Part shown: positions 30,348-52,757 of the stretch, piece after piece
Layout: each line of letters starts with the position of its first letter
Position numbering within the stretch: position 1 is the stretch's first letter
IMG/VR virus record: IMGVR_UViG_3300025133_000026
Source: a virus
DNA: 64,000 nt
Direction: 5' to 3' (one strand)
Program-made: the position numbers and the translations under genes
The notes under the pieces: generated by a model
Databases searched by the model: none
Seen by the model: only the letters and a program-made list of their open reading frames with translations
Told to the model about the DNA's origin: nothing

Positions 30348-30405
30348 TATGATTTCCTAACAACTTTTTAATTTGACTTGCAAGCACTCTGAGTCTATCA
30401 CTCAT

Positions 30406-36606: not shown

Positions 36607-37080
36607 TTATCCTAGAAGCCCACTGCCTAAATCAAATCGAAGAGCTTTGTGACTATCTGATTTGTCAGGATCTGTGCTGTTTTTTAATGAATTGATTCCA
36701 ATCAGATGGGCCTCTCCAGTCAAAATTGCAGATCTAGAGAAAACGATCTCGACTATTCCTCCAACTAGTCCACCACTTCCCATAGCATCAGATCCAATTA
36801 GACTTGCGAATACATTTGGATCCATATTTAATGGAAACACAGTTTCCCTAATTATAGCACGGTAGCCAGACCCCTCTCCCCTGAGGGGCTCAACCTTAAC
36901 TCTTACTGTGTTTGAATTAAGGTGATCTCCATACTTTTCTGTATGCTCTTGACCGGGATAGTAAACAGAAATAACTTGTGCAGGGATTTTATTAGTTTCG
37001 TCTCTAATGTTAGATCTAGAGATCTTGTCTTGCATTCTCTGAAGATCTTGCGCCCCTTTTGTTTTTCTTTTAATAGACAT
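36607..37080 (-). CDS. Hypothetical baseplate protein (possible spike OB-fold)
   Basis: AQVISVY...TVRVKVE...GGIVEIVF resembles a gpV/gp5 N-terminal OB fold; follows the hub. Confidence 0.4.
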   Translation of the reverse strand: MSIKRKTKGAQDLQRMQDKISRSNIRDETNKIPAQVISVYYPGQEHTEKYGDHLNSNTVRVKVEPLRGEGSGYRAIIRETVFPLNMDPNVFASLIGSDAMGSGGLVGGIVEIVFSRSAILTGEAHLIGINSLKNSTDPDKSDSHKALRFDLGSGLLG

Positions 37081-40000
37081 TAGCCTTCATCTCCCAATCC
37101 TGTGATGGCCCATTTTTCCCATGTGCTTAAATCGTCACTATATGCATTGACGATATCGTGATTATATAGAGAGAAATCAATAAGCCTATTCATAAAACCT
37201 TCCTCTGCGTCGTCGACCCAAAGACGAAGCTTTCCCAACCATGAATCAAAAATGTTTTCAGGAATATCTTCAGGAATTCCAGCAAGCATGGGGATCCCCC
37301 CTTTTGCGAGAGGGATCACCATGCCAATTGTTTTATCTGTACTCTTTAAGATTTGTCTAAAACCACCGGTTAATTGTGCTCCACTAATAGGTGTTGGATG
37401 AGAGACAAAGTTTGCTGTATTTATAAAAAGATTACCTGCGGCGGCACTTACACCTGTTAAGACTTGCCCCGCAGTCCCCGAGAAAGTATTCGTAGCAAGT
37501 AATCCTGCACCAGCGATCACCCCTCCAACAACAACTCCTGCAGGACCTGTCGCTACACTAGCTACACCGACACCTGCCCACATCCCAGCGCCTCCGCTGA
37601 GCAAAGTTCCTCCAGTTTGAGCAAGGCTTTCGTTTAGTGTTGGGTTCCCAATAGCAGAAGTAAATTCTAATGTATTCCCGAAAAGAGAGCCGGCCGCTTT
37701 TAGAGCCGCCCATCCCATTGAATCTAACAATCCAGTCGACCCCATTTCATTAACAACAACGACAGCATCTGGAATAACAACAGAAATAAATCCTGTGTTT
37801 GGAGAAAAGAAGTGGGTAACTTCTTCAACTTCGACAGGACCTGCCATATCATTGTAGTTGTCCATAAGGAAAACAATATCGTAAGGTTTTAGTTCTGGAT
37901 TTCCCAATAAGGTAAGCTGCCCAGTATACATTTCTTTAAGACCTTCTTGAATCGCTTTCAAAGAATAGCGTTCGGCCATTGCTTGCCCATTGCAATTTTC
38001 AAAGTCCAGATCAGCTAAAAGAATATCTTCATCTGCCATGTAAGGATGATATTTATAAATAGCAACTTCAGACTCTGTCCTTCCTTTGCTTATCGATCTC
38101 CAAACAAATCCGCCGGCTTCTCCGGCGGCCACAAGGCCGATGTTCAGAGAGTTCGCTGATGGCCCGCCCTCACCGAAGGCTTCTTCCTCTCCTCCTTCCG
38201 TAGCTTTACTAACATCGTCTATAAAGTCTAGCGCGCGGCCACCCCAGGTTCTTGCGTTATACCTGACAGCAACACTGTTGTGCATATTATAGGAAGACGT
38301 ACTAATTTCATTAGATACAATATCGTGATAGCTTGTAACAAAATGATATTTGCGGAAAGGCTTAAAGCGTTGACGCAATCCTCTTAAATATAAAGTTAGT
38401 GAAGGAATAAGATTGGTTTCTATGCTCTTTCTTTGCGCTCCAGAGAGAGCAGAAGACCCCAATTGATCTTCTGCTAAATTGATATCTTCTCTTGCCTTGT
38501 TCATTGATTCAATAAAAGCTGGAGTCGCATCTTCGGCCCAATAGCGCTGAGAGGGGATACCAAAGAACATTGTCATTCTAGACCCATAAGGAACAGGAGA
38601 AGCGACCCACCCTGGGTGTCTGAAGGTCATCTCTTGAAAAACATCCCAAATAGTAGTGCTCTTCGGGTGATAAACAATTTGCCTATGGTCCATCCCTCCA
38701 CTAAAATCCCATAACCCATAATCAATATAAACGTCAGGATCAGGAGCATAAATATTATTGTCGGCAGGACTGTCTCTATAGCTGCGCCATCTCTTTAAAA
38801 GAAATTCCTTCAGTCTAAGCTCTCCTGCAGCATTAATTCCTTCTCCAATCCATCCCCGCGCTTGACCCATATTTGCAATTGCACTAGCCCCACTATCAAG
38901 AATTCCATCAATAAGAAATGTATCGGTAGTGTCTGTTAGATTCTGCTGAATTGCGCGACTAGAAGAAAGCAAAGAGTTGACTTTGTTGTCGTAAGTCTTC
39001 TTTGCCGTCATCCATTTTAGACTGTTTCGATAAGTCCTATCATTGTTATTAATTGATAGTTGTTCTCCCACTTGTGGCAAATAACCCCACTGCCATTTTC
39101 CAAAGTGCATAACCTCAGGAGAGCGAATCATTGAAGAAAGGAGATCTGTTGTGTTTAGGTATGCTGTCGCAAAGCTAAGAGTTGCGTTAGCCTCTACTGG
39201 GCCATCAACAGGAAACTCTTCTCCAGAGATTCCCTTCTTCATTTGAACTAGTTCGGTTGCATATGATTGACAAACAATTGTCACAATATCGGTATTGTTT
39301 GACCAGTGTACTTCAACTACCCTGCCATTAAAAACAGTTGACAGAAAGTCGGGGTTGTTTGAATATCCCAATCGTAATTGAACATTCATTCCTTCTCGAA
39401 GAATGATTGAGTTGAATACATCTTCTTCTGCCGACCCTTCTTTTGCTCGAGATCGAGATGCACTCATTTTCTCTGATTTTTCTGTTGGATTGGCTAGATC
39501 TGTGTTCTTTCCTAACACATAGTCTAGATCAGTAATAGCTCCTTGAAGTGTTCCGTCAAGAACACCAGAAACATTCTGAAGCTCTACTACACACAAGTCT
39601 GCAGGTATTTTCCTTGATCTTGTTAATGAAATTGACCGAACTGCATTGTATCCATAGAAGTCATCAAGAGCTGACCAGCTTTCTTCTCCAGAGTCTTCTT
39701 CGATAAAATAGAGTTTAAATGTAGGGAAGGCTCTTTTTAACAAGTATTTTCGGCTTTCAAAGTCTTGCATAGAGTGATATGCAATTTCTTTTAAAGCATC
39801 AATATCAAATTTGTGATCAAGAAGGGGGTCTTTTTCAAAGACTGTCTCTTGTGCAAGGATATGACTTACTCCACTAAATTTACTATTGAAGTGTTTTTCT
39901 ACATTGTCCACTTCTTTTCTAAGAGATTCGTAGCTAGCAGTTCCTCCACTCTTTCTTTTGATAGTTTCTGAGCCGTCAAAATGCTTTCCTATCTTAAACT

Positions 40001-43000
40001 CTTCTCTAAAGTTTTCAGATTCGAAAGTTCCATCTTGTAAAGCATCCATCGAGGCCTTGTTGTTCCTCAGAATTTGGAGAATCTGTTTCTTCAATTTTGG
40101 ATCAGCACTATCAAATCCTTCAATCCCTGCATTGTCTGCATAATTGTAAAAGTAGAAATCAGGGTCTGTAAAAGTACTACTTCCAAAGTATGGATGGTCT
40201 GGCAGGTTAAGATCAGGATAACAAGGAGACCTTTTTCTTGAGGTAGCAGCAGAAGTAAAAATATCCTGAAAGTCAGAGTGTAGCCTTGCTTTTGGGTCTT
40301 GCAAAAAAGCTTGTTGGAGAACGCCAGCAATCAATTCTCTTATCAAGGCTATTAGTTCTAGTTCTTTTGCTTTTTTTGCTCCTGGGCTTAAGGGAGCCAC
40401 TATCTGCTCAGCATCAACACTACCAAGAAGACCTGTTCCAGCAACAGCAGTTCCACCACCCAGCAAAGCGCCCAACCCCGCGGCTGCTGCTCCTGCCGCA
40501 CTCAAGCCAGCACCTATACCTCCAAGAATTCCTGCAACGAATGCATTGGAAGAATCATCTTCTTTGAATTTATGTGCGGTTCCCAATGTAGCAATTAGTC
40601 TATTTCCTAATGTAGACCAAGTTCTATTTCCAAATTCACTGAGAAAGTCTTCTTCTCCGTTTATATAAGAGAATCCGGCCACAGTGGGAACGTTTATTAA
40701 CCGTTTCCCAGTAGTCTGTTCATAGGAAGGAAGGACATATTTCTCTATACCAAAGAAAGGAGCTCTTTCAATGATTTCTTGTCTAGTCAATCCATGATAA
40801 TGACCATCAGAAAGAACAAGGTTTGCAAAGATACAAAGCTGAGCAATATCTTGTAGCTTTCCTGCCAACCATTCATCACCTACATTGTCTACTGTATATT
40901 TGAAATTCCAAGTTTTCCAATACTCTTCTTTCCTTTCTTCTCCTTTCTCATAAATGGTTCCTGTGTCTTTCTCACTTGGAAGTGCACCACGGTAACCTTT
41001 TTGTTCTAAGTGCCCATGTTCGACAGCATGTTTAGAAGGAGCTGTATCGGGTCGATCTTGAAATACCGAACGAAGAACTTTTCGTTCATAAGGCATCCCA
41101 ACCTTGTCTTTTCTGGTATATCTTTGAGTAACTGTCCAGCCCTTTTTCTTTAAGCTAGAAATCTTAGAGGCTTCGCGCACTGAGTCTAAGAACTCTGAAT
41201 CTTCTGGTGGTGCAGGCGGAGGCGCATGTCTTATATTTGTGTCTCCACTAGCGATAAAAGCTCTTTGTTGTTGTCCCCCAATATCTTTATTTAATTGAGA
41301 AGAAGAAGGGTCCATCCTTACCATTTGTCTTGTCGAGTCTTGTCGACTTTCAACAATCTCTACTTTGATGTATTTCTCAAAGAGTCTTTCAACAATCTCT
41401 GCCATCGTTTCTTCAGTGGAGTAACCAGTACTTTGTAGAGATTCTCCAGAGAAGGGTTCCGAGGCTGTTAGTTCAAGATCAAAAGTATAAGATCCTGGAT
41501 GTTGAGGGATCGTATCACTACGCAAATTGTTAACTGCAAATTGGCGAGCCCCAATGAGACGAGAGCCGAAACAGGAAACATTGACTGTCCAAGAATCTGG
41601 GATTGCTCGAAAAAGTCTTGCATTCTTCTGTAACATTCCAACCATATCAACAAGGGCTTTGGCTCCAATGGGAATATCATCTGTCTGTTTAGAGAGAGCT
41701 GCAAAGTTTAAAAAGAGCTTGCCCTCAAAACTTCCGACAAGTTGAGACGTAGGTGTTTCATGACTAAGAAGAGGGAGTGTAGCTATTTGATTTCCAAGTG
41801 TTGCTGACATTGCTGTGCAAATAAAAGCACTGTTGGATCCGAACTCACCTTCTGTTAAAGGAACGATTAATTTCCAATCTCTGTAAATTACATTTGCCAC
41901 ATGTGGGGATTTGTAAAGGTGCCAGCCTTGGGCTGCCAGATCTTTCATCTGTTCAGAGGTCTGTTCTGACAATTTTTCAAAGTCTACTTCAGAGAAAGTC
42001 GGAACAGGACTACTTCCAGAAGAGAAAACAATGGCAGAATCACTTTCTTCAATACTCAGAGTCAAGGGATCTATTGGATCTCCATTCCTTCTAACTTCCC
42101 AGTGAAGGTGAGGTCCTGTACTGAGTCCAGTACTTCCAACGGTTCCAATAAGCTCTCCCTTCACAACTGTACTTCCAAGACCTGTCTCAATAGAATTGAG
42201 ATGCATAAAAGAGTGTTTGTATCCACCAGCTTCTTGGAGATAAACGGTTAAACCATTTGCACTGTTATCTTCAGTTCGGAGTCGAACAATCTTCCCTTCA
42301 ATAGGAGCCACAACAGGTGTTCCAGTAGGTGCTCCGATGTCAACGCCGTTGTGTGGCCTATAGACTTTATCTACAGGATGAAATCGATTAGGATTAAAGA
42401 GAGAAGTAACAGTTCCTTTTGTTGGAAACAAATAGCTCCCAGAGTTAAAATTAGAGTTTGTTTCTGCCAAGACCTCTTCACTTACCGTAGCATTCTTTAC
42501 TAAGGCAGCTACATCGGGACCACTAGGAAGAATTCCGAACTCTTTCCATTCTAGAACAACACTTTTTCCTTTTGTATAGGCAGAAGTATTGTATCTCATC
42601 ACTTGCGCTTCTGGGGTAGCCATAAAGATTGACATTGCCCAAGCGGCTCCAAAGTGGTCTTCCAGCCCTTTTGCTTGAAGATAATTAATATAGTAACGGT
42701 AAATATCAGACTCTTCTGGTGTGACATCTGTGGTTGTCGGCTCTCTAAAAGGAGAAGGATTTAATCCCGTAACATCGACTCTTTGTTCATCCAATTGGAG
42801 ATAACGGGGCTGACTAATCGTTTCAAGACTAGAGAAGGGTGTCTCTTCTTGGAAGATATTCTCTTCTTCTCCTACTTCAATATTATAAATAGTTCTCTTT
42901 TTTCCATCAAGGCTTTCAATATTCCAATCCTTTCTCCACCTTAGGTTTGGAGCATAAGGGGCATAATTGAAGTAGGAGAGAGTTAGCCCGACCTCAAAAG

Positions 43001-43346
43001 AGTGAGGAAGTTCAGGCACAGAAACAACATTCATGTCTCTGGCAGTGAAAGCCAAAGATACATGCCTTGGCATTGAACTACCAATTGCATTTTTAAGATA
43101 TCTATTCTTTACATACCAAATAGGAGTATTTTGAAATTCTAAGACAAGACGATGCAATTGATCTAGATTACCTGGAGTGAATACGAGTCTCAATCCAACA
43201 CTGATGTCTCCCTGCCCTGTAGGGATCTTCGCAGATTGTGAACTACGAAGAGTCTTCCATTCGAAATGTTGATTTGAATGGTTGACAGTTATATCCGTAG
43301 GCGGAATATCAAAAACAAGATCATTTATTTGAAAGTAATTATTCAT
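37080..43346 (-). CDS. Giant baseplate hub-like protein with internal M23 peptidoglycan endopeptidase (2088 aa)
   Basis: M23 at ~42065-42420 (HNGVD, GSTGLSTGPHLHWEV); hub-like segment LREGMNVQLRLGYS...VFNGRVVEV; two Gly/Ala-rich hydrophobic stretches. Confidence 0.8.
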   Translation of the reverse strand: MNNYFQINDLVFDIPPTDITVNHSNQHFEWKTLRSSQSAKIPTGQGDISVGLRLVFTPGNLDQLHRLVLEFQNTPIWYVKNRYLKNAIGSSMPRHVSLAFTARDMNVVSVPELPHSFEVGLTLSYFNYAPYAPNLRWRKDWNIESLDGKKRTIYNIEVGEEENIFQEETPFSSLETISQPRYLQLDEQRVDVTGLNPSPFREPTTTDVTPEESDIYRYYINYLQAKGLEDHFGAAWAMSIFMATPEAQVMRYNTSAYTKGKSVVLEWKEFGILPSGPDVAALVKNATVSEEVLAETNSNFNSGSYLFPTKGTVTSLFNPNRFHPVDKVYRPHNGVDIGAPTGTPVVAPIEGKIVRLRTEDNSANGLTVYLQEAGGYKHSFMHLNSIETGLGSTVVKGELIGTVGSTGLSTGPHLHWEVRRNGDPIDPLTLSIEESDSAIVFSSGSSPVPTFSEVDFEKLSEQTSEQMKDLAAQGWHLYKSPHVANVIYRDWKLIVPLTEGEFGSNSAFICTAMSATLGNQIATLPLLSHETPTSQLVGSFEGKLFLNFAALSKQTDDIPIGAKALVDMVGMLQKNARLFRAIPDSWTVNVSCFGSRLIGARQFAVNNLRSDTIPQHPGSYTFDLELTASEPFSGESLQSTGYSTEETMAEIVERLFEKYIKVEIVESRQDSTRQMVRMDPSSSQLNKDIGGQQQRAFIASGDTNIRHAPPPAPPEDSEFLDSVREASKISSLKKKGWTVTQRYTRKDKVGMPYERKVLRSVFQDRPDTAPSKHAVEHGHLEQKGYRGALPSEKDTGTIYEKGEERKEEYWKTWNFKYTVDNVGDEWLAGKLQDIAQLCIFANLVLSDGHYHGLTRQEIIERAPFFGIEKYVLPSYEQTTGKRLINVPTVAGFSYINGEEDFLSEFGNRTWSTLGNRLIATLGTAHKFKEDDSSNAFVAGILGGIGAGLSAAGAAAAGLGALLGGGTAVAGTGLLGSVDAEQIVAPLSPGAKKAKELELIALIRELIAGVLQQAFLQDPKARLHSDFQDIFTSAATSRKRSPCYPDLNLPDHPYFGSSTFTDPDFYFYNYADNAGIEGFDSADPKLKKQILQILRNNKASMDALQDGTFESENFREEFKIGKHFDGSETIKRKSGGTASYESLRKEVDNVEKHFNSKFSGVSHILAQETVFEKDPLLDHKFDIDALKEIAYHSMQDFESRKYLLKRAFPTFKLYFIEEDSGEESWSALDDFYGYNAVRSISLTRSRKIPADLCVVELQNVSGVLDGTLQGAITDLDYVLGKNTDLANPTEKSEKMSASRSRAKEGSAEEDVFNSIILREGMNVQLRLGYSNNPDFLSTVFNGRVVEVHWSNNTDIVTIVCQSYATELVQMKKGISGEEFPVDGPVEANATLSFATAYLNTTDLLSSMIRSPEVMHFGKWQWGYLPQVGEQLSINNNDRTYRNSLKWMTAKKTYDNKVNSLLSSSRAIQQNLTDTTDTFLIDGILDSGASAIANMGQARGWIGEGINAAGELRLKEFLLKRWRSYRDSPADNNIYAPDPDVYIDYGLWDFSGGMDHRQIVYHPKSTTIWDVFQEMTFRHPGWVASPVPYGSRMTMFFGIPSQRYWAEDATPAFIESMNKAREDINLAEDQLGSSALSGAQRKSIETNLIPSLTLYLRGLRQRFKPFRKYHFVTSYHDIVSNEISTSSYNMHNSVAVRYNARTWGGRALDFIDDVSKATEGGEEEAFGEGGPSANSLNIGLVAAGEAGGFVWRSISKGRTESEVAIYKYHPYMADEDILLADLDFENCNGQAMAERYSLKAIQEGLKEMYTGQLTLLGNPELKPYDIVFLMDNYNDMAGPVEVEEVTHFFSPNTGFISVVIPDAVVVVNEMGSTGLLDSMGWAALKAAGSLFGNTLEFTSAIGNPTLNESLAQTGGTLLSGGAGMWAGVGVASVATGPAGVVVGGVIAGAGLLATNTFSGTAGQVLTGVSAAAGNLFINTANFVSHPTPISGAQLTGGFRQILKSTDKTIGMVIPLAKGGIPMLAGIPEDIPENIFDSWLGKLRLWVDDAEEGFMNRLIDFSLYNHDIVNAYSDDLSTWEKWAITGLGDEG

Positions 43347-46300
43347 ATTTACGACGCTCTCTATTTAGCTCTGCTGGAGATAAGACTCTTCTCCTGTCCT
43401 CTATTCTACTATTAATACTTGTTTTATTGAGTCGTTCTCTTAAGGCTTGATGAAAACCTCCCATATTTATTCTGCTCATGTCATCTCGAATACTCATCCT
43501 TGTTGATGTGCCCTGTCTAGACAAGGACATGCGTGGTTGATGGAATTGACTATCTGGTAAAAAGTCTGTGCTTCCAACGGGCTGATGAATAGACATTTGA
43601 GGCTCTTGTGAGCGCTGCGCATTTAGTAATTCTCCAGAGCGAATTGCATTAAGAATACGGGGGTCTACCTTCTCACCCTCTGCAAGCAAAGGCTGGGGTG
43701 AATACCCTGGATCGCCCAGCAACCCAAAGGCCAAGGCTGAACCTGCGAGACCTAATAGAATAGGGGCTCCGAAGAATCTGTCTCCAAGTTTACCCGCTGC
43801 TCGTCGCGCTCTGTCTCCAAGCTCTGTATTGATTGCTTCTATTGTTTCTCTCGATGCACCAGCAGCTTCAGCTTCTCCAAGCATAGCAGCAAGTACTGCA
43901 GAACCAGGGTCTCCGCTTTTCTTGGCAAGTTCTCGGGCTTTTATTAAGCCTTCAACGCTAAGATCTCTGCCGTGCTGCTCTCTCTTTCTTCTGTATACAT
44001 CAAAGACTTTTCGATCATCCGAACCGAGATAATCCCCGAAAGTATTAACAAGCTTATGAAAATAGTCATCATCTACTTTCAAGGTTCTTGTCTCTCCATC
44101 GCCCACCGAATAATCAATTCCCGTCGCAAGTTCTTCAGGAATTAATTCCTGAGATAGGTGAGAGATAAATTTAAGAATATCAGGATCTCGTCCACCACCT
44201 GAAGACAATGCTGATGCCAAGTCTCGTGAAAGAGTCGGAGCTCTCTCTAGCTTCTTAGCCTTGAGGGTACCTGTTTCCTCTGCGACGGCAAGAAGGTTTA
44301 CAGTTCGAGAAATAAAGTCTTGATCTTTAGACTGGGTGAGAACCGCATACTTGACTTCTTCAAGGGCTCTTGAAAGTGGCCCAATATCTTTACTGTATCT
44401 TTGCTTATAGGCTGCCCGACTAAGACCACCCATTGCTGCTTGGCTATTGACTTGTTCCATCTGTTTCTTTAGAACTTTGGAAAGAATTTGTTGCTCTGCA
44501 GCTCGTGCTTCAAACTGTTGTTCGAACTTTGCCCATCCGGCTTTGTTTTCTGTCATTATCGAAATTGCATTTTTCTCTTGCATTATTTTGATAGCAACCA
44601 TATCTTTGTCAAAGTCAAGGGTCATACCAGGAGCCATACCGAGATCTGCCTCAATTGTGCCTCCTAGAAGTTGTTTGGCGGACTCATTGAGAATATTAAT
44701 ATTCTTCATTCTGTTCTGTATCACAACACGACTAGAAGAATCTGCTGTTTCCAGACCTTGATGAACTCGTAAATAAACAGGCTGGGTTGATTGTTCTCCG
44801 ACTGTTGGGAAACGCCAAATCATTCCAGCCATTGATGATTCACCCTTCATAAAGGCTTTTTTCGAAACAGCATCAAGCTTGGCTCCTCTTGTTAAGTTTC
44901 GTGCTTGGTTTTGAGAAAGAAAGACTGTTCTCTTTAACTCACCAGGGTCTACTTGATCTAAAGTTCCCAAAAGATCTTCTCCAATTGTTCTTCCGGCAGC
45001 AGCCCATTCGTCACTACCTTTCCCTGCCTTAAGAACTAAATCTAGATCAGAAACACCAGCCGCCTGAACAAAAGAAGAGGCTGGCCCAAGAGAGTTGACG
45101 GTTATTCTTTTGTCTGCAGCTAAAGAATACTTTGCCATACTCGTCTTCAGTTTCTTGGCAAAATAGCGTGCTTCTTCTGGAGACTTCGCATCTCTTAATC
45201 CTGAAACATTTCTTGTTATCTCTTTTGTTATATGTCTAAAGTCAACTCGACCACTATTCTTTTGTCTATAATATCCAACACCAGTTTCAAGAGACTCTTC
45301 TCCAGGAAGCATAAAACGTTCAGGAACAATATCAGCAACAGCATCGACTTGAGAGGGAGAAACTTTTCTTAGATCTAAAAGGAAGTCTTTTTTAGGATAA
45401 AGGCGCTCCTTGTCAAGCAAGAGAGAGTCGGCATACCCCATGACATTCATAGACTCACTTGGAAGCTTACCTCCATGGAGACTACTGAGAGATCTCCTTA
45501 GAGTAGCTGCCATTCTCACAGCACCTCTGTTTTCTCCAGAGATTGCAGACATAAGGTCTTGAATCATCGCAGAAGAGAGGTCTTTGTCTCCCAGTTTCCA
45601 GCCGGCAGTCATCAAACCATCAAGACTGCGAGCTTCGAGTGTTGCAAATCGACCTTTGTTAAGCGTCGGGTCATCAGCAGGGACTAAAGCACCCCAAGAG
45701 ATGACCCCACTAGCTTGCTCAATACTTGTCATTACTTGCTTTCTTTCTGCAACAGAAAGACCAACATCTTTTAGAAGACCGCCGAACTTTTTAGCTCCAA
45801 GAACTTTAGCCGCACCCTTAAAGGCTGTGCCTGTCTGGAGCGCACTTCCGAAAACACCAATTTCTCGTGCTTCTAAAAGAGCAGCCCTCATGAAGTCTTC
45901 AAGTGTGCCAGCAGCCCCTTTGGCCATCTTGCCTTGAAGATAATCCAGAGGAGATACCCCTAGAATTCCCTTCATTTTTTGTCTTCTGTCGGACTCAGCC
46001 GAAAGTGTTGCTGATGCCCAGTACTTCAATGCACCTGCTACCTGTCTTTTAACACCGTAGGCACCTTGTTTTACAGATGTCGCGCTGGTGGTTACTGCCT
46101 CTACTCCTTGTGATAAAAGTTTATAATCAGCGCTATCTGCATCTGCTGGATTAATGCGGCCGAGAATCGTACCCATCATTTTGTCATCAATAAATTTAAG
46201 AGTAGTTTTCCAGCCACCACTAATACCTTGTTGTAGTTTGGTTCCTTCTCCAAGACCAAAGATACGTTGCATCTGGAGAACTCTGTTTCCAGCCTCGTCT

Positions 46301-48801
46301 GTTGTTACTCCAATAAGCCTGTCTTGCATTCTTCGTCCTCGAACGGAAAAGATCGGCTTTCCAGTCTCTGCATCAAGACCCAAGAAAACACCTTTTGGCA
46401 AATCCATATCAGGAAGACCTTGCTTTAGATAATCATCTACAAAAGGTGAAGAAACTCCAGCGCCAACAACTCTTTGAGTATGAGGCGAAGCAAACCGTAT
46501 TCCGTACCCACCTTTAGATGTTCTTGTTTTAAACTTCTCATGAAGATACATTTCACCCTCAAGCAAAGAAAGGTTCTTCTCAAGAGTCATCACTTTCTTA
46601 TCATCAATGACTTCAAAAGTTAATGCATGTGGGTTTAGGTAACCATATTTTCCGAGCAGCTCTTCTTCAAATTTGGCCCCAGGGTTTACTGGCATCCAAC
46701 GGTTAAAAGCCTTCAAAGGTCCGCCTCGCATCGCAGCGCCCTTGTTCTTATCTAATTTCCACCCACCGTTAATGTGCGGACTAATGCCTTGTCCTGTTTG
46801 TACTTCTGTAGGAAGTACAACTGATATCTCTCTGAAGCTTTGATAGGGTCGTGACAATACAAAAGGCTCCATCTCTGCTTGTAAAACCTTTCCACTTGGA
46901 CCAGCAAGAGCCTCTTCTGAAGGAAGTCCAGAATACCAATCATAAGCAAGACGATTTTGCTTGTTGGTCATGATAAACATACCTTCCGCTGTTTGCTCAG
47001 GACCCATCAAGTGCACATTTGGTGACCCACCAAGGCGGGCCACGATTTTGTCTTTATCTTTTGTATAAAGTTTATTGTTAACATCTTCATAGATTTCTCT
47101 AGACACAGCAAGATTAGACTGAAGAACATTCTGTAATTCTGCCCCACTTGTTGAGCCAGGAGTGATGTAGCGAGAGAATTTTGAAATTCTCTCCATTCCG
47201 GATCTTAGAATACTTCGTCGCTCCCAGGGTCGAGTCTGGGGAGAAAGAATTCTTCCGAAAATATCTCTTCCTGCTTCCCATAGAGCAGTGCGTCCAGACA
47301 CACTTTTTTCAGCACCCTCTATTCCAACCCTTGACATTGTATAAGCACTGCCATTAGAAGTTAAATAAGTACTCCCTGCATGTTTTCCTGGGAGGATCAT
47401 TTCAAAAGGTCGGTGCGTCCCTTCCATAAACAACCGAACACGGAAGTAATTGCCAGGGTCAGAAGTATGCAAAGCACCTTGACGAAACAGAGTATCAACT
47501 TCAAGAGAAGCTCCTGTGGGTAATTGGTCAAGGCCAAGTCGTCTTGCTACTAGTTTTCTTTCTATATCTGTAGTAGCGCGGGATGAGACACCAGTACCAC
47601 CGAATCCTTTGTTACTTGGAAGAGGAGTGCCTCCATTTTTCAAATTGTCATGAAGAGTTATCATTAGCTCTGCATCTAATGCAGCATACTGCATTTGCTG
47701 AGCAGATAAAGGCCTGAGGCTCCAGTCTGACTGTTGGTAAAGTTTTTCTACCCTAACCCCCATCTCTCTCTCAACCAAAGCGGCAAGACTATGGCTATAA
47801 CCTTTTGTCTTGCCATATTTTTGCTGTGAGGCATCAAAAGTATCAAACACATTGTCAAGCTGTATACCAGCTTTTTCAAGAACTTCTTTTTCAAACTTAG
47901 AATAGTGGATTACTTTTGTTGCTGGCCCTTCCAAGATAGGCTTCAATACTTCTAAAGAAGAAAGTGTTTTCGCATCAATAATCCAAGTTCCTTCATTTGT
48001 CGCTAACTGAACGGTAGATATTTGTTTTGTTCCAAAAGTCTCAACATCGAGACCAAAAACCTCTACACCTTGAACACTTTTAACAAACTCTCCAACAGCT
48101 TGGGCACCAGAGAGAAACTTGACAGGCTTCGTCGTTTTTGCTGTTGGCAGAACGGGGGCTGGTAATGAGTAATCTCTTCGAGCCGCCCCCATGCCTTGAG
48201 AAAGTCCAGTAAACGAGATGTGTTCAGCTGAAACCCCGCCTCTTTTCAAGCTCTTTAGTTTCCCAAAAACACTACGATGACTGATTCCTTGGATTCTTAA
48301 AAACTCTCCTATTTCATTAGCACTAGCACCAGAGAGATATCTGGCAGCATCAGCCATTGTATCCATCTTTCTGTTGTGGGTAGGGTCAAGCATTGTTGAG
48401 AATGCAGCCAAGCGAAGAAGAGGAAGTTCTTTTGCTGAGGTTTTCTTAGAAAAGTCTATAACTTCTTTTGCTAAACTAGCATCGTGCTGTGCGCTGCTGT
48501 GCCGTTGAAAACGCCCGGCGGTCTCAGCGACTAAACTCCCCAAGTCACGGAAGCCTCGTGATTTACGAGAAGGTAAGGTTAAGCTTGGTCGCGATGGAGT
48601 AGGAGAAGGCAGATTCCCCTCTTTCGTTGTTGTAAAAAGACTGTCCGTCCATGCTCCAATATCTTTAAGAGCGTCAACAACCTCGTCTTGATTTCGAGAA
48701 ATAGTCCATGCTGCGGCACCCAATGCAGGAGCCATTCCAACTATAGTGCCCATGCTGGAGAAAATGCCGCCTAAGCCTGATTGTTCTAAATCATTGCTCA
48801 T
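43339..48801 (-). CDS. Putative virion two-barrel (DPBB) RNA polymerase with inserted DEDDy 3'-5' exonuclease, in the tape-measure position (1820 aa)
   Basis: Exonuclease: LDVET, HYSKFE, SDWSLRPLS, YAALD. Beta-like: LGEGTKLQQGISGGWKTT. Beta-prime-like: WRFPT...MTLDFDKDMVAI. Hydrophobic segments at both termini. Confidence 0.7.
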   Translation of the reverse strand: MSNDLEQSGLGGIFSSMGTIVGMAPALGAAAWTISRNQDEVVDALKDIGAWTDSLFTTTKEGNLPSPTPSRPSLTLPSRKSRGFRDLGSLVAETAGRFQRHSSAQHDASLAKEVIDFSKKTSAKELPLLRLAAFSTMLDPTHNRKMDTMADAARYLSGASANEIGEFLRIQGISHRSVFGKLKSLKRGGVSAEHISFTGLSQGMGAARRDYSLPAPVLPTAKTTKPVKFLSGAQAVGEFVKSVQGVEVFGLDVETFGTKQISTVQLATNEGTWIIDAKTLSSLEVLKPILEGPATKVIHYSKFEKEVLEKAGIQLDNVFDTFDASQQKYGKTKGYSHSLAALVEREMGVRVEKLYQQSDWSLRPLSAQQMQYAALDAELMITLHDNLKNGGTPLPSNKGFGGTGVSSRATTDIERKLVARRLGLDQLPTGASLEVDTLFRQGALHTSDPGNYFRVRLFMEGTHRPFEMILPGKHAGSTYLTSNGSAYTMSRVGIEGAEKSVSGRTALWEAGRDIFGRILSPQTRPWERRSILRSGMERISKFSRYITPGSTSGAELQNVLQSNLAVSREIYEDVNNKLYTKDKDKIVARLGGSPNVHLMGPEQTAEGMFIMTNKQNRLAYDWYSGLPSEEALAGPSGKVLQAEMEPFVLSRPYQSFREISVVLPTEVQTGQGISPHINGGWKLDKNKGAAMRGGPLKAFNRWMPVNPGAKFEEELLGKYGYLNPHALTFEVIDDKKVMTLEKNLSLLEGEMYLHEKFKTRTSKGGYGIRFASPHTQRVVGAGVSSPFVDDYLKQGLPDMDLPKGVFLGLDAETGKPIFSVRGRRMQDRLIGVTTDEAGNRVLQMQRIFGLGEGTKLQQGISGGWKTTLKFIDDKMMGTILGRINPADADSADYKLLSQGVEAVTTSATSVKQGAYGVKRQVAGALKYWASATLSAESDRRQKMKGILGVSPLDYLQGKMAKGAAGTLEDFMRAALLEAREIGVFGSALQTGTAFKGAAKVLGAKKFGGLLKDVGLSVAERKQVMTSIEQASGVISWGALVPADDPTLNKGRFATLEARSLDGLMTAGWKLGDKDLSSAMIQDLMSAISGENRGAVRMAATLRRSLSSLHGGKLPSESMNVMGYADSLLLDKERLYPKKDFLLDLRKVSPSQVDAVADIVPERFMLPGEESLETGVGYYRQKNSGRVDFRHITKEITRNVSGLRDAKSPEEARYFAKKLKTSMAKYSLAADKRITVNSLGPASSFVQAAGVSDLDLVLKAGKGSDEWAAAGRTIGEDLLGTLDQVDPGELKRTVFLSQNQARNLTRGAKLDAVSKKAFMKGESSMAGMIWRFPTVGEQSTQPVYLRVHQGLETADSSSRVVIQNRMKNINILNESAKQLLGGTIEADLGMAPGMTLDFDKDMVAIKIMQEKNAISIMTENKAGWAKFEQQFEARAAEQQILSKVLKKQMEQVNSQAAMGGLSRAAYKQRYSKDIGPLSRALEEVKYAVLTQSKDQDFISRTVNLLAVAEETGTLKAKKLERAPTLSRDLASALSSGGGRDPDILKFISHLSQELIPEELATGIDYSVGDGETRTLKVDDDYFHKLVNTFGDYLGSDDRKVFDVYRRKREQHGRDLSVEGLIKARELAKKSGDPGSAVLAAMLGEAEAAGASRETIEAINTELGDRARRAAGKLGDRFFGAPILLGLAGSALAFGLLGDPGYSPQPLLAEGEKVDPRILNAIRSGELLNAQRSQEPQMSIHQPVGSTDFLPDSQFHQPRMSLSRQGTSTRMSIRDDMSRINMGGFHQALRERLNKTSINSRIEDRRRVLSPAELNRERRKYE

Positions 48802-51800
48802 TTGAATCTATCCTCATATTTCTTTCTCATAGCAAAACGAGAGTCTTCTATATTGAGACGAACATCATTTCTACTTTGACTAGATCTTACATCAGAGACC
48901 TCAAGGTCATAGTCTATGATACCAAAGTCAGAGGCTGTCTGGTCGATTATCCTACGAACATCGTTTGAATTTTCTTTTGGAGACATCATTTCATCAACCA
49001 TCTCTTCATTGATGTATGGTTTTCTTGCAAGAAGCCTGACATGACTATCCCAGAAACCAAAATCATGAATATCCATACCTTCAGACATTGCATACTTTAA
49101 CTTAACATCCTCTAAGTCTACACCTGGATGAAAGCCCAGCCAAGAGCGGTCGGGAATGCCACCCTTTTCATCAAAATAAGCAATAACCTCAGCCGGGTCT
49201 GGTTGGTATGCGCTATAGGCTTCTTGTAGTCGTTCTAATGTTGCTGTGTCTCCAGAAAGTTCAGCATCCATGCGAGCCCATTGGGCTTGATAAATACGTC
49301 TATAAGATTCTGGAATCAACTGCAGAATTTCTTCTCTTTCGCTTAATGATCGCGCTGAAGAAAATGCATCAAAATATTTTCTTTGTACTGCAGGGAGGGC
49401 TGCACGGATAATATTCTGATCACCAAAAGCATCAACGCCAGTTACTGTATTGCTTTGTAAACGAATATAATCTTGCGCCTTAGAGCTGTCTCCTTCATTC
49501 AAAGCATTTTTTGCTAGGAGATTCCACTTTAAATACTCAAGTTTATCAAAATGTTCTTCAACATCTCTTACATCTTGCAGATAAGAAGGTGCACCGAATC
49601 CAAGAAGCCCCCTAAAAGAATTAAAGGCAGGACGAACCCAGTCACGAATTGGCTTGTCCCAGAAAGCTAATTGAGTACCATGCATATGATATTGTTCATA
49701 ATGCTCAACAGGGGTTTCTACCCCTGAGAGTAATTTACTGAATGGACGGAAGCCAAACGGGAACAGGTATTCGACTGGAGCAACAAGTTTTTTGAATGCA
49801 ACTGTCCATCCTCTTCCGGCGCCACTAAAAAAAGCTTTTGCTTTTGTTTGCTCATTCATATCAGTGACTTGACCAAAAAGCTTATTTCTTCTATTCTTTA
49901 ATCTTTGATCAATTCTATTCAGTTTAGCCAATGTAGCTTCGCTATAGATGCCAGCTTCAATTCTTCTATTGATTTGTGTTTCAACTGTTCTGAATTCAGA
50001 AGACCAATAGGCTACATCAGAAAGAATCTTGTATTTATGTTCAAGGGGATAGTCTTCTGGATTTAATCCTTCAAGCTCAGGGTGCAGGGCTGCATACCCA
50101 GGCCCAGGCATTCGCCCTTCTCCATATGGAATGTTATATGGATCTCCCGTTCTCAAATCCTTTGGCAGCCAAGAAGGCATCGCATTTGGAATCGGGTTGT
50201 ATTCTTTGATTTCAGAACCCTTTGCAGGGTAATATCGACGAATAGCTTCCGAGGCAAACAGAAGACCGCCTAGTTCCATATCCCAAAATTTCTTACTAAT
50301 GCTAGAAATCTGTTCTGCAGACTGGAGTCTTGTGTCTTGAGAGAATAATCTTGGATCTCCACCACTAGTTATTCCGACATAAGTCTGTTGTAAGAAACCA
50401 ACCAAACCTGCTTGTTCACTGCTACTGTACAAGAAATCAGAAAATCGATTCTTGGGAGAGAAAGGAGAAACAGGGACAGCAGCGCCCAGACCGCCTAGTT
50501 CTGGAATTGGCGGTGTCGATAAACTATCGGGCGGATGGAGCATTTCAAGTTCACCAGATTCGCTTACTTGGACCCACTCTCCAAGATGCATTAGCTTGGG
50601 TGGTTTTAGAACCCTACCCACAGTAGACGCCAGAATCTCTCCAACAAAAGGAACATCATTAAAAGCAGTTGCCGTAATTGGGTATGGTCTGCTTTCATAA
50701 TTGCGTCGCTCTAACTCATATGTAAAGTTCTTTAAAAAGAACTTTTGTAAAGGAGAAAGCTGGTCTTCTGTTACACCCCAAGCTGCTTTTTCAACAGCTC
50801 TTGACATCATTAATGGATACCAGTGAGGTTTGTGGTGGGTAATGTCAGCACCTTCATAAGGTGTTCCTCCAGCCTCCCAAAGCCTACCTCTTCTTACAGC
50901 AACTTGTTCGTCTCCGGAATAAAGTGCTTTTAATTCTTCTGGACTTTCTTTAGAAGCTAACTGACCTGTTGCAAGAGCCCATGCTCCTGCACCCGCTAAG
51001 AACCGAATAGCCCCGCCTCGCAATGGCAAATGTCGATTCTTCCACCAGATAGTGGATCTATTTAACTCTTCTAATAATTTTCCACCACCAGAAGTGAAGG
51101 CGGCCTTCGTTTGTCTCCACCCTTTACCAAGAAACCCGTCTCCTTGGTTGATATAATCTGCCCATCTTTCATCGATTGATTTTTGAAGTGCTATCCTTGG
51201 GTTCTCGCTAGAAAGACCATGAAGCATGTCTTGTTCTACACTATTCCAGGTTTCCTTCGCAGCATCGAGATAGCCTGTTAAAGTGGTTGGAGATCTGGTT
51301 CTCATTCGAGAAGCCCAGTCTCTCCATCGATCAAAATAACCGTGAACTGGTCGTGTTTCTGATACAGCCAATCCTGCTGATCGAATAGCACTCTCTCCTA
51401 CAAAGGTATTAAGCATTTTACGCCCACCAACACCAACAACAAGACCGGCCAACAAAGCAGTTTCCGGTTTTGAGGCAATTGGATGAAGGGAGTCTGCTAA
51501 TTCTCTGTGCCCTGCTCCGATAAAAGGCAATACACCACCAAAAGCATGAGACATATGTGATCTAAAAAGGTTTCCTCTGGTCAGGACTGTTCCAAGGCCC
51601 GGCAAAATACCTTCATCGAAAACAGGAGCAAGGGTAGCGAGCGCAGTACCTGCCCCAACCAAAGCAGAAACTCGAGGAGAAGCACTATAAGCACCTCTGG
51701 CAATAATACCAGTCATTGCACCATAAGCACCAGCAGAAACAAAATTTCCTAGTTCGTCGTTTCTTCGAAGCCAGTCAGCCGTAGATAAGCCTAATCCGAC

Positions 51801-52757
51801 AATACCAATCTTCGCGCCAAGCTTTGCATAACGCGCTTGCATGCTAAAGAAAGACCCCTCTTTAACAACCATATTAAAATTAGGAAGAAAAGAACCCAGG
51901 ATAGGAACTTCTTCTATAAACGTAGAAACTAATTGATTAAGACGTTGGCTAGCAAACGCACCAACTGTTCGTGCGTACTGAAGAGCAAAACCAGTCCTTG
52001 GGCTCAATTCCCCAAAATGAGGAAGAGAGACGCGGGAAGAAGCAGGAACAAACTCAGGCAGCTGGCGGACTCTTTGTCTTTCTAATATTGCTAAGTCTTC
52101 CGCTCGACTTAAATTGACCTCGGCTTGTGTCCTTGGAGCCCCAGAATATGCTGATCTCTCTGAGGTTAATTGTTGATGGAGGTCTTCGTCAACAAGAGAA
52201 AGATGTGCCGCAAAGAATCTATCGTAAGAGGAGTTTAGTGGATCTCCTCTTCTTAGAAGAAATATGTTGTCTGCTAAAGTTCGGCCGTTGAGGGTTAGCC
52301 TTCCACTAAATTCACCGGTTCTATGAAACTGCATAGCGGCATCACGAGCATGGAAGCCACGAGCAGCCAATTGGGTTTCAGACATACCGGTGACTTGACT
52401 AATATATCTTGCTGTATTTCTTCTATTATTTCCAAGGAAATTGGTAGCAATGTTTACGGTACCACCAACAATTTTTTCATGCTCAACAAACGGAGAGACA
52501 ATACCTGGTAGTCTGAGGGTAGGACCAAAGAAAGGAATGGCTTGTTCGAAGCCAGCAAGGCCTCTGTAGAGCCACGTAAAGCCCGTATCGCCCTGATAGG
52601 TCTTACGTCCTGCTGCCCAGAGAGCAGCGCCTCCTGCAGCCGTCCAGGCCCCAGTACGCGCAACTTGGCCCCAAGGACTGGAACCCCCATACACAGTGGG
52701 CTCAGATGACCAAGTAGGTCTCTGAGCCCTTTGTTGGTACTCTCTTGATACGGCCAT
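48798..52757 (-). CDS. Tape-measure-like / ejection protein with several hydrophobic segments (1319 aa)
   Basis: First large ORF after the chaperones; helical, Ala/Gly-rich with multiple TM-like stretches. Confidence 0.6.
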   Translation of the reverse strand: MAVSREYQQRAQRPTWSSEPTVYGGSSPWGQVARTGAWTAAGGAALWAAGRKTYQGDTGFTWLYRGLAGFEQAIPFFGPTLRLPGIVSPFVEHEKIVGGTVNIATNFLGNNRRNTARYISQVTGMSETQLAARGFHARDAAMQFHRTGEFSGRLTLNGRTLADNIFLLRRGDPLNSSYDRFFAAHLSLVDEDLHQQLTSERSAYSGAPRTQAEVNLSRAEDLAILERQRVRQLPEFVPASSRVSLPHFGELSPRTGFALQYARTVGAFASQRLNQLVSTFIEEVPILGSFLPNFNMVVKEGSFFSMQARYAKLGAKIGIVGLGLSTADWLRRNDELGNFVSAGAYGAMTGIIARGAYSASPRVSALVGAGTALATLAPVFDEGILPGLGTVLTRGNLFRSHMSHAFGGVLPFIGAGHRELADSLHPIASKPETALLAGLVVGVGGRKMLNTFVGESAIRSAGLAVSETRPVHGYFDRWRDWASRMRTRSPTTLTGYLDAAKETWNSVEQDMLHGLSSENPRIALQKSIDERWADYINQGDGFLGKGWRQTKAAFTSGGGKLLEELNRSTIWWKNRHLPLRGGAIRFLAGAGAWALATGQLASKESPEELKALYSGDEQVAVRRGRLWEAGGTPYEGADITHHKPHWYPLMMSRAVEKAAWGVTEDQLSPLQKFFLKNFTYELERRNYESRPYPITATAFNDVPFVGEILASTVGRVLKPPKLMHLGEWVQVSESGELEMLHPPDSLSTPPIPELGGLGAAVPVSPFSPKNRFSDFLYSSSEQAGLVGFLQQTYVGITSGGDPRLFSQDTRLQSAEQISSISKKFWDMELGGLLFASEAIRRYYPAKGSEIKEYNPIPNAMPSWLPKDLRTGDPYNIPYGEGRMPGPGYAALHPELEGLNPEDYPLEHKYKILSDVAYWSSEFRTVETQINRRIEAGIYSEATLAKLNRIDQRLKNRRNKLFGQVTDMNEQTKAKAFFSGAGRGWTVAFKKLVAPVEYLFPFGFRPFSKLLSGVETPVEHYEQYHMHGTQLAFWDKPIRDWVRPAFNSFRGLLGFGAPSYLQDVRDVEEHFDKLEYLKWNLLAKNALNEGDSSKAQDYIRLQSNTVTGVDAFGDQNIIRAALPAVQRKYFDAFSSARSLSEREEILQLIPESYRRIYQAQWARMDAELSGDTATLERLQEAYSAYQPDPAEVIAYFDEKGGIPDRSWLGFHPGVDLEDVKLKYAMSEGMDIHDFGFWDSHVRLLARKPYINEEMVDEMMSPKENSNDVRRIIDQTASDFGIIDYDLEVSDVRSSQSRNDVRLNIEDSRFAMRKKYEDRFK

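What the first reader, a model, noticed from the sequence alone, without database searches (positions are those of the whole stretch)
47640..48070. RNase D/WRN-type DEDDy exonuclease domain inserted into the putative virion RNA polymerase
Seen: ExoI FGLDVETFG, ExoII KVIHYSKFEKEVL (Glu where Asp is usual), the RNase D-like SDWSLRPLSAQQ, and ExoIII YAALD. The domain is bounded by Pro/Gly-rich linkers (PVLPTAKTTKP; GGTPLPSNKGFGG), so it looks like a discrete module. No PolA polymerase motifs follow. Known: two-barrel RNAPs proofread with their own active site plus Gre/TFIIS and do not normally carry a DEDD domain. Inference: a tethered exonuclease could proofread or trim transcript 3' ends, or attack host nucleic acid once injected. 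I do not know of a described DPBB-RNAP plus DEDDy fusion, but I could not search for one.
Basis: partly seen in the sequence, partly recalled or inferred. Interest (0 to 1): 0.85.

Follow-up and report, generated by a model that had tools for sequence, protein, structure and literature searches.

The report
Exonuclease module on tail-borne phage polymerase
A marine contractile-tailed phage carries, where the tail tape-measure gene normally sits, a giant RNA-polymerase-like protein that has uniquely picked up a complete 3'-5' exonuclease domain, a fusion I found in no relative and in none of the papers I could search.

Summary
Residues 234-389 of the 1820-aa ORF 43339-48801(-) are a full PF01612 3'-5' exonuclease domain (E 4e-27). 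ExoI D252/E254 and ExoIII Y372/D376 are intact, ExoII has Glu304 where Asp is usual, and Pro- and Gly-rich linkers flank the domain.

The host protein is very probably a single-chain two-barrel RNA polymerase:
- DFDKD and R-x-P are invariant in all homologs.
- A beta-like Lys motif (K855...K865) is conserved.
- The AlphaFold model of aa ~1100-1600 matches only largest RNAP subunits and single-chain RNAPs in its top 16 hits (Z up to 9.2).
- The model of aa 700-1050 matches second-largest subunits (Z 5.2-6.0).

The gene lies between homologs of 0305phi8-36 gp145 and gp147, which is the tape-measure slot. Phage P23-45 gp96 is a published precedent for a tape-measure-fused virion RNAP.

None of the 9 distinct homologs found carries the exonuclease. 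It is therefore a lineage-specific accessory and not an obligate proofreader. Identical sequence in independent assemblies argues against a chimera.

I read it as a co-ejected passenger nuclease acting on 3' ends at genome entry. Substrate and activity are untested. This scan also noted the same stretch in an overlapping window of the same genome, not on other DNA.

Verdict: new variant of a known kind, moderately interesting.

The parts
43339..48801 (-). 1820-aa ORF (P0001): host protein, a single-chain two-barrel RNAP-like protein in the tape-measure slot
48697..48777 (-). N-terminal Gly/Ala-rich hydrophobic segment (aa 9-35), shared in type with homologs
   Evidence: alignment A1, N-terminal block
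48124..48156 (-). Pro-rich linker PVLPTAKTTKP (aa 216-226) before the exonuclease domain
47635..48102 (-). PF01612 3'-5' exonuclease domain, aa 234-389
   Evidence: E 4.3e-27
48031..48057 (-). ExoI motif FGLDVETFG (D252, E254)
47878..47916 (-). ExoII motif KVIHYSKFEKEVL, with E304 in place of the canonical Asp
47674..47730 (-). SDWSLRPLSAQQ (RNase D/Rrp6-like signature) plus ExoIII YAALD (Y372, D376)
47596..47634 (-). Gly-rich linker GGTPLPSNKGFGG (aa 390-402). Homology to the family core begins at aa 403.
45652..46704 (-). Beta-subunit-like barrel region (aa ~700-1050), including the conserved Lys motif K855...K865 (nt 46207-46239)
44560..45081 (-). Beta'-like double-psi beta-barrel (aa 1241-1414) with R1330-x-P1332 (nt 44806-44814) and invariant DFDKD (aa 1396-1400, nt 44602-44616)
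43711..43776 (-). C-terminal transmembrane-like segment (aa 1676-1697), followed by a conserved C-terminal tail (RRPLTP-type)
48798..52757 (-). Upstream 1319-aa protein rich in hydrophobic segments, homolog of 0305phi8-36 virion protein gp145
37080..43346 (-). Downstream 2088-aa baseplate hub with M23 peptidase, homolog of 0305phi8-36 gp147

Best explanation
The segment encodes a complete PolA-exo/RNase D-type DEDDy 3'-5' exonuclease domain. Its catalytic set reads D252, E254, E304, Y372, D376. The domain is an in-frame, lineage-specific insertion in the variable N-terminal arm of an 1820-aa single-chain two-barrel RNA polymerase. In that polymerase a beta-like barrel precedes a beta'-like barrel carrying DFDKD. 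The polymerase gene occupies the tape-measure slot of a marine myovirus tail module, between a gp145-like virion protein and the M23 baseplate hub. Inferred mechanism: the protein is packed in the tail and ejected with the genome, as shown for P23-45 gp96, and the polymerase makes the first transcripts. The exonuclease is a passenger domain, in the way injected 'polyvalent' phage proteins collect accessory enzymes. It acts on free 3' ends near the entry site. DNA ends are the more likely substrate, because the best family models are DNA-polymerase proofreading exonucleases. It is not an obligate proofreader of the polymerase. Shown here: domain identity, motifs, fold assignments of the host protein, synteny, and absence from homologs. 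Inferred: virion location, ejection, catalytic activity, substrate.
For: Domain: Pfam PF01612 E 4.3e-27. PDB sequence matches to diDNase, Rrp6, NrnC, PolI and RNase D align the catalytic residues. NCBIfam best hit is NF011539, bifunctional exonuclease/PolA, E 1.5e-26. The only matches of the protein to phage records (tblastn) are its exonuclease domain against the DNA polymerase region of two Pseudanabaena phages.
Host protein: D1396/D1398/D1400, R1330, P1332 and S1338 are invariant in 8-10 homologs. K855 is invariant and K865 nearly so. VIA-align top 16 hits are all largest RNAP subunits or single-chain RNAPs: Pol I Z 9.2; NRPD1 Z 8.8, rmsd 3.6 over 155 aa; QDE-1 Z 8.6; P23-45 gp96 Z 5.8. The model of aa 700-1050 matches second-largest subunits: Rpo132 Z 6.0 over 232 aa, plus NRPD2, ASFV, A135 and C128.
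Position: major capsid protein, sheath and tube-like genes lie upstream and a baseplate wedge gene downstream. The flanking genes are homologs of 0305phi8-36 gp145 and gp147, which flank that phage's tape-measure gene gp146. The same trio of giant genes is seen in L002 and L008/L009.
Accessory status: no homolog has PF01612 or any other Pfam domain. Homology to the family core starts at aa 403, directly after the Gly linker.
Not a chimera: the identical protein occurs on 7 contigs from JGI 3300006789, JGI 3300006923 and Logan SRR5701579, and the three fetched stretches are base-identical across the gene.
Precedents: tape-measure-fused virion RNAP (PMC10770324); injected polyvalent proteins with accessory enzymes on virion RNAPs (PMC5512222).
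Against: No experiment or proteome shows that this protein is in virions or is ejected. The AlphaFold models are of low to middling confidence (mean pLDDT 56 and 60, from alignments of only 9-10 sequences). Foldseek gave no PDB hit at E<=1e-3. The beta-like match has only Z 5-6. ExoII carries Glu, not Asp, so activity could be reduced or lost. The fusion is known from a single phage genotype, so selection on the domain cannot be measured. Substrate preference cannot be read from sequence: RNA-acting Rrp6 and RNase D score nearly as well as the DNA enzymes. Read-level support for the junctions could not be obtained.
Confidence: 0.6

Rival explanations
1. Cis-acting proofreader or transcript trimmer. 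The tethered exonuclease removes misincorporated or backtracked 3' RNA ends, or trims the 3' ends of early transcripts made by the adjacent polymerase.
For: The two activities are covalently linked through a flexible linker. RNA-acting relatives (Rrp6, RNase D, Mut-7) are among the matches. PolD shows that a two-barrel polymerase can work with a dedicated exonuclease (PMC6355029, listed).
Against: All 9 distinct homologs lack the domain. The domain lies about 450 residues before the beta-like barrel region and about 1000 residues before the catalytic DFDKD. From general knowledge, two-barrel RNAPs cleave backtracked RNA in their own active site. The best family models are DNA proofreading exonucleases.
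Confidence: 0.15
2. Catalytically weakened or dead domain kept as a 3'-end or nucleic-acid binding module. For example, it could hold the leading genome end next to the N-terminal arm of the tail-lumen protein so that DNA follows the ejected protein. It could also be purely structural.
For: ExoII Asp is replaced by Glu304. The domain sits in the N-terminal arm of the protein. From general knowledge of lambda-type tails, the N-terminal end of a tape-measure protein faces the head and so lies nearest the DNA end.
Against: The other four catalytic residues and the DW..RPL signature are intact, and Glu can still bind metal. The full-length, high-scoring Pfam match shows no sign of decay.
Confidence: 0.15
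3. Artefact: an assembly chimera joining an exonuclease gene to a tail gene, or a missed stop or frameshift that makes two genes look like one.
For: The fusion is known from one genotype only. Read mapping could not be run.
Against: The identical 1820-aa protein and identical DNA were assembled in at least three samples by different pipelines. The reading frame is continuous, with family-like sequence on both sides of the domain (N-terminal hydrophobic segment and the core from aa 403). GC3 of the segment (0.295) is like the rest of the gene.
Confidence: 0.03
4. The host protein is an ordinary tape-measure or ejection protein and not a polymerase. The DxDxD motif and the fold matches are chance, so the exonuclease is simply an effector on a structural protein.
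For: There is no Pfam or PHROG hit to RNAP. hhalign to P23-45 gp96 found nothing. Foldseek E-values are >0.01. Model confidence is low.
Against: DxDxD, R-x-P and the K...K motif are invariant across homologs of 20-29% identity. The C-terminal model matches largest subunits and the N-terminal model matches second-largest subunits, in the order seen in QDE-1-like enzymes. Published two-barrel families are known to lack detectable sequence similarity outside DxDxD (PMC10770324).
Confidence: 0.07

Closest known systems
P23-45 gp96, the tape-measure-fused virion two-barrel RNAP (Chaban et al. 2024, PMC10770324; PDB 8h2m/8h2n)
   Same: A single-chain two-barrel polymerase encoded in the tape-measure position of a tail module. 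It has hydrophobic/transmembrane segments, and a cell-wall peptidase lies in the same gene (gp96) or the next gene (here). A structural match exists (Z 5.8, 204 aa, rmsd 4.9).
   Different: gp96 belongs to a siphovirus, has its polymerase at the N-terminus of a 5002-aa protein, and has no exonuclease. Here the phage has a contractile tail, the catalytic barrel is near the C-terminus of an 1820-aa protein, there is no detectable sequence homology, and a DEDDy domain is present.
crAss-like phage phi14:2 gp66 and Neurospora QDE-1 (single-chain two-barrel RNAPs)
   Same: A beta-like barrel followed by a beta'-like barrel with DxDxD in one chain. gp66 is a virion-delivered enzyme. QDE-1 is among the top structural matches (Z 8.6, 236 aa).
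   Different: Neither carries an exonuclease domain. No sequence-level relationship was detected here. gp66 itself was not compared directly.
PF01612 exonucleases: the PolA proofreading domain (NF011539-type bifunctional enzymes), RNase D, Rrp6, WRN, Mut-7, NrnC/diDNase
   Same: Full-length domain match, ExoI DxE, ExoIII Yx3D and the DW..RPL signature.
   Different: There is no polymerase-A domain, no HRDC domain and no helicase. It is not a ~200-aa stand-alone oligomeric dinuclease. ExoII has Glu instead of Asp. All family-specific scores are far below the equivalog cut-offs.
Polyvalent injected proteins of phages and conjugative elements (Iyer et al. 2017, PMC5512222)
   Same: A giant protein delivered with the DNA that combines an early-acting polymerase with accessory enzymatic domains that vary between lineages.
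   Different: That survey describes N4-type (T7-like) virion RNAPs with metallopeptidase, ART, lysozyme and PBECR RNase domains. A DEDD exonuclease is not among the domains it lists.
Archaeal PolD (DP2 two-barrel DNA polymerase plus DP1 exonuclease)
   Same: A two-barrel polymerase working with a dedicated 3'-5' exonuclease.
   Different: The DP1 exonuclease is Mre11-like, a separate subunit, and constant in the family. Here the exonuclease is DEDDy, fused, and sporadic.

Membership tests
PF01612 / DEDDy 3'-5' exonuclease superfamily | Sequence match to the family profile above the curated cut-off over the whole domain | tested here: met
   95.5 bits against a cut-off of 23.6, profile positions 8-170 of 173
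PF01612 / DEDDy 3'-5' exonuclease superfamily | ExoI D-x-E | tested here: met
   D252 and E254 align with DTET of diDNase
PF01612 / DEDDy 3'-5' exonuclease superfamily | ExoII Asp (third metal-binding carboxylate) | tested here: inconclusive
   A carboxylate is present but it is Glu304, aligned to the Rrp6 and diDNase Asp. The effect on catalysis is unknown.
PF01612 / DEDDy 3'-5' exonuclease superfamily | ExoIII Y-x3-D | tested here: met
   Y372 and D376 in YAALD align with YARAD and YAAND
PF01612 / DEDDy 3'-5' exonuclease superfamily | Metal-dependent 3'-5' exonuclease activity | not testable with these tools
   Needs a biochemical assay
RNase D proper (TIGR01388 / PRK10829) | Equivalog-level score and HRDC domain(s) after the exonuclease core | tested here: not met
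   61.9 bits against a cut-off of 298.95. No HRDC or other Pfam hit after aa 389.
Bifunctional 3'-5' exonuclease/DNA polymerase A (NF011539) | PolA polymerase domain following the exonuclease | tested here: not met
   Only profile positions 51-218 of 628 match, at 92.9 bits against a cut-off of 640. No PF00476 hit.
NrnC/diDNase dinucleases | Stand-alone ~200-aa protein with a Leu wedge and a 5'-phosphate cap (PMC11706625) | tested here: inconclusive
   The best PDB sequence hit is a reconstructed diDNase ancestor (E 7e-13). However, the domain is embedded in an 1820-aa protein, and the wedge and cap residues were not mapped.
Two-barrel (DPBB) RNA polymerases | Beta'-like double-psi barrel carrying an invariant DxDxD | tested here: met
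   D1396/D1398/D1400 are invariant. Isolated DPBB domains match aa 1241-1414 at Z about 6, and largest subunits match at Z up to 9.2.
Two-barrel (DPBB) RNA polymerases | Second, beta-like barrel with conserved Lys residues | tested here: met
   aa 700-1050 match Rpo132, NRPD2, ASFV subunit 2, A135 and C128 (Z 5.2-6.0, 219-232 aa). K855 is invariant and K865 is conserved. This is moderate strength only.
Two-barrel (DPBB) RNA polymerases | Bridge helix and trigger loop; template-directed RNA synthesis | not tested
   Model confidence is too low to map these elements. Activity needs an assay.
Tape-measure-fused virion RNAP (P23-45 gp96 type) | Encoded in the tape-measure position of the tail module | tested here: met
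   The gene is flanked by homologs of 0305phi8-36 gp145 and gp147, which flank the tape-measure gene gp146.
Tape-measure-fused virion RNAP (P23-45 gp96 type) | Sequence homology to gp96 | tested here: not met
   hhalign probability 0.2%. Only fold-level similarity, Z 5.8.
Tape-measure-fused virion RNAP (P23-45 gp96 type) | Presence in virions and early-gene transcription | not testable with these tools
   The phage is uncultured and known only from metagenomes.

The most novel reading that the evidence does not exclude
The exonuclease is functionally coupled to the ejected polymerase at the moment of genome entry. Sitting on the head-proximal N-terminal arm, it engages the leading 3' end of the phage DNA and resects it. 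This would expose single-stranded template on which a clamp-less two-barrel polymerase can start without a melting factor. Alternatively, it gives this polymerase true exonucleolytic proofreading. Either case would be the first DEDDy-assisted two-barrel polymerase, and a phage-side parallel to the RdRP plus Mut-7/WRN-type exonuclease pairing of eukaryotic RNA silencing.
Probability: 0.12. Interest if true: 0.85.

Novelty: new variant of a known kind. Interest (0 to 1): 0.6.

Why it matters
Virion-delivered two-barrel RNA polymerases have so far been characterised in crAss-like phages and in the siphovirus P23-45. This locus extends the tape-measure-slot version to contractile-tailed marine phages. 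It does so through a very rare protein family: about 10 distinct members were found in searches of billions of proteins. It also shows that the variable N-terminal arm of such a polymerase can take on an extra enzyme. A DEDDy exonuclease riding on an ejected polymerase has not been described in the papers I could search. If active, it would be a new type of first-minute effector. It could act on the phage's own DNA end, on early transcripts, or on host or defence nucleic acids. It would also be a compact natural polymerase-exonuclease pair to test in vitro. Because only one genotype has it, general importance is limited until relatives or activity data appear.

Tried and rejected
- Word-indexed homolog searches with the whole protein, with aa 1280-1820 and with aa 225-400 returned only the query itself.
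- The exhaustive phmmer search was needed to find the 7 relatives.
- The IMG/VR scan gave one more distinct relative, present on two contigs (L008/L009). The metagenome scan gave one new relative (L011); its other locus (L010) encodes a protein already found, P0005.
- PHROGs gave no hit for the whole protein. The isolated domain gave only a weak hit to a 3'-5' exonuclease PHROG.
- hhalign of the family profile against P23-45 gp96 aa 1-1200 found nothing.
- The family HMM against 0305phi8-36 gp145/146/147 and the P23-45 ORFs found nothing. So 0305phi8-36 has an ordinary tape-measure protein in this slot.
- Foldseek against the PDB gave no hit at E<=1e-3, although RNAP largest subunits dominated the weak list.
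- Scanning IMG/VR with the exonuclease domain alone found no relative.
- The complete relative phage G001 has a stand-alone 208-aa PF01612 gene far from its tail genes. It is only 28% identical over 96 aa, so it is not an evident donor or split partner. G001 has no PolA gene.
- Permissive Pfam scans of aa 1-240, aa 390-660 and the C-terminal 160 aa found nothing.
- No direct repeats bound the domain-coding segment. Its GC3 is like the rest of the gene, so there is no sign of recent transfer.
- Two papers (PMC3769190, PMC12127119) are not held.
- No whole genome is held for the window.
Full report
**Observation.** The finding lies in a 1820-codon ORF on the minus strand, 43339-48801. Pfam PF01612 (DNA_pol_A_exo1) covers residues 234-389, that is profile positions 8-170 of 173, at 95.5 bits and E 4.3e-27 against a curated cut-off of 23.6 bits. 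HMMER alignments to solved structures place D252/E254 on ExoI, E304 on the ExoII aspartate of Rrp6 and diDNase, and Y372/D376 on ExoIII. They also reproduce the DW..RPL signature of the RNase D/Rrp6 group. The best solved-structure matches are a reconstructed diDNase ancestor (7e-13), Rrp6 (7e-12), a DNA polymerase I (4e-10), NrnC, plastid PolA enzymes, Mut-7 and RNase D.

NCBIfam ranks the exonuclease part of bifunctional exonuclease/PolA enzymes first (NF011539, 1.5e-26), ahead of RNase D (6e-17). All these scores are far below the equivalog cut-offs. Against the phage collection, tblastn matches only the exonuclease domain, in the DNA polymerase region of two Pseudanabaena phages. No polymerase-A, HRDC or other Pfam domain is present anywhere else in the protein. 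The domain is complete, its catalytic set reads D-E-E-D-y, and it cannot be assigned to one functional subfamily.

**Surroundings.** The window is a phage structural block read entirely on the minus strand. In order it holds:
- the major capsid protein (62072-63310);
- the tail sheath (55941-57830);
- two tube-like paralogs;
- three small ORFs;
- three overlapping giant genes of 1319, 1820 and 2088 aa;
- a gp6-like baseplate wedge gene (34543-35826).

The 2088-aa protein has an M23 peptidase domain and is a homolog of the baseplate hub gp147 of Bacillus phage 0305phi8-36. The 1319-aa protein, rich in hydrophobic segments, is a homolog of that phage's virion protein gp145. In 0305phi8-36 the gene between these two is the putative tape-measure protein gp146. 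The ORF of interest therefore sits in the tape-measure slot of a contractile-tail module. It has no detectable similarity to gp146.

**The host protein.** Word-based searches found only the query. An exhaustive phmmer search of 1.84 billion representatives with aa 400-1599 found seven relatives at 25-32% identity. Contig scans added two more distinct ones.

In the alignments, D1396, D1398 and D1400 (GM..DFDKDM), R1330-x-P1332 and S1338 are invariant. This is the pattern of the beta' barrel (R-x-P-T...NADFDGD). Further upstream, K855 is invariant and K865 nearly so (K-x4-9-G-x-K-x-T), which resembles the beta-subunit lysine motif.

An AlphaFold model of aa 600-1680 has modest confidence (pLDDT 56). 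Foldseek gave no significant PDB hit, although RNAP largest subunits dominate the weak list. The full VIA-align scan of 48,161 chains put only two-barrel polymerases in the top 16:
- Pol I A190: Z 9.2
- archaeal RpoA': Z 9.1
- Rpb1: Z 8.9
- NRPD1: Z 8.8, rmsd 3.6 over 155 aa
- QDE-1: Z 8.6
- vaccinia Rpo147: Z 8.5
- AR9 and phiKZ non-virion RNAPs
- P74-26 gp62: Z 7.0
- RDR2: Z 7.0

Further down the list, isolated double-psi barrels align to aa 1241-1414, and P23-45 gp96 scores Z 5.8.

A second model, of aa 700-1245 (pLDDT 60), matched second-largest subunits over aa ~700-1050. These were vaccinia Rpo132 (Z 6.0, 232 aa), NRPD2, ASFV subunit 2, A135 and C128. The Z values are middling and the alignments shallow. 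Even so, the division of labour is what a single-chain two-barrel RNA polymerase of the QDE-1/gp66/gp96 kind should give: the N-terminal part matches beta-like chains and the C-terminal part matches beta'-like chains, in that order, with invariant catalytic motifs. I put this at about 0.9.

The same trio of genes (gp145-like, DxDxD protein, M23 hub) recurs around the relatives. All members share a hydrophobic N-terminal segment, a C-terminal transmembrane-like segment and a conserved C-terminal tail. These features fit a tail-lumen, ejected protein.

**Is the exonuclease constant or sporadic?** None of the nine distinct relatives has PF01612 or any other Pfam domain. In the alignment the exonuclease region of the query faces gaps or unrelated sequence. 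Pairwise homology to the closest full-length relative begins at residue 403, immediately after the Gly-rich linker. The N-terminal hydrophobic segment is shared. The domain is therefore an insertion into the variable arm between the N-terminal segment and the polymerase core, and it is specific to this lineage.

A complete 189.6-kb relative phage has a stand-alone 208-aa PF01612 gene far from its tail genes. It is only 28% identical over 96 residues, so it is neither an obvious donor nor a split partner. No close copy of the domain was found in IMG/VR or among large proteins. The nearest clusters by language-model features are small stand-alone bacterial and viral exonucleases.

**Artefact check.** The identical 1820-aa protein is recorded on seven contigs from JGI samples 3300006789 and 3300006923 and from Logan SRR5701579. 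The three stretches I fetched are base-for-base identical across the gene. GC3 of the domain segment is like the rest of the gene. No repeats bound it. Read-level mapping could not be run. A chimera is very unlikely, at about 0.03.

**How it most likely works.** Shown here: the domain, the motifs, the fold assignment, the synteny and the sporadic distribution. Taken from the literature:
- a two-barrel virion RNAP can be part of a tape-measure protein and transcribe pre-early genes during DNA entry (P23-45 gp96, PMC10770324);
- injected phage proteins that carry a virion RNAP often collect lineage-specific accessory enzymes (polyvalent proteins, PMC5512222).

My inference is that this protein is loaded in the tail, leaves it with the DNA and makes the first transcripts. 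The exonuclease would be a passenger that acts on free 3' ends at the entry site. Because the whole family otherwise lacks the domain, it cannot be an obligate proofreader. Because its best family models are DNA-polymerase proofreading domains, DNA 3' ends are somewhat more likely substrates than RNA, but Rrp6 and RNase D score nearly as well. Glu304 leaves activity open. I give 0.6 to the passenger-effector reading, 0.15 to cis proofreading or trimming, 0.15 to a weakened binding module, 0.07 to 'not a polymerase' and 0.03 to artefact.

**Comparison and novelty.** The closest known system is P23-45 gp96. It shares the genomic slot and the enzyme class. It differs in tail type and domain order, shows no sequence homology, and has no exonuclease. 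The crAss-like phage enzyme gp66 and QDE-1 share the single-chain two-barrel plan. PolD shows a two-barrel polymerase with a dedicated exonuclease, but that exonuclease is Mre11-like, a separate subunit and constant in the family. Full-text searches for virion or two-barrel RNAP together with exonuclease, and the polyvalent-protein survey, produced no description of a DEDD exonuclease fused to such a polymerase. Two key papers were not held, so this is absence in what I could read, not proof.

I rate it a new variant of a known kind. Interest is 0.6, limited by the single genotype and the lack of any activity data. Notes from this scan had already flagged the same stretch in an overlapping window, the polymerase, and the three-gene module on this same genome. 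I tested the polymerase claim and the synteny myself.

Noticed in passing
window 48798-52757 (-): A 1319-aa protein with many Gly/Ala-rich hydrophobic segments in its first half. It has no Pfam or PHROG hit. It is a homolog of the mass-spectrometry-confirmed virion protein gp145 of 0305phi8-36, and it is conserved upstream of every DxDxD protein examined.
   Followed up: partly
window 54576-55265 and 55271-55927 (-): Two adjacent paralogous ~220-aa genes directly after the sheath gene. Both hit phrog_9206 (labelled 'major head protein') and phrog_34314. By position they look like duplicated tail-tube genes, so the PHROG label is probably misleading.
   Followed up: no
window 30000-32000: A local GC peak (0.51 against about 0.40 in the flanks) over the 369-aa ORF 30406-31515, which has no PHROG hit.
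   Followed up: no
L013:1486-2112 (-) (IMG/VR record G001, 177 kb into a 189.6-kb complete relative phage): A stand-alone 208-aa PF01612 exonuclease gene in the relative phage. It is distant from the window's fused domain. That phage has no PolA gene.
   Followed up: partly
L002:15824-16120 (+): In a relative's tail/baseplate block, a 98-aa Endonuclease_7 gene sits between the M23 hub and the baseplate J genes. This is another nuclease embedded in the virion module of this phage group.
   Followed up: no
window 43339-43821 (-), aa 1661-1820: A C-terminal transmembrane-like segment (GLAGSA..F) followed by a family-conserved terminal motif (RRPLTP..DL). This is possibly the hub- or tip-docking end of the protein.
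   Followed up: no
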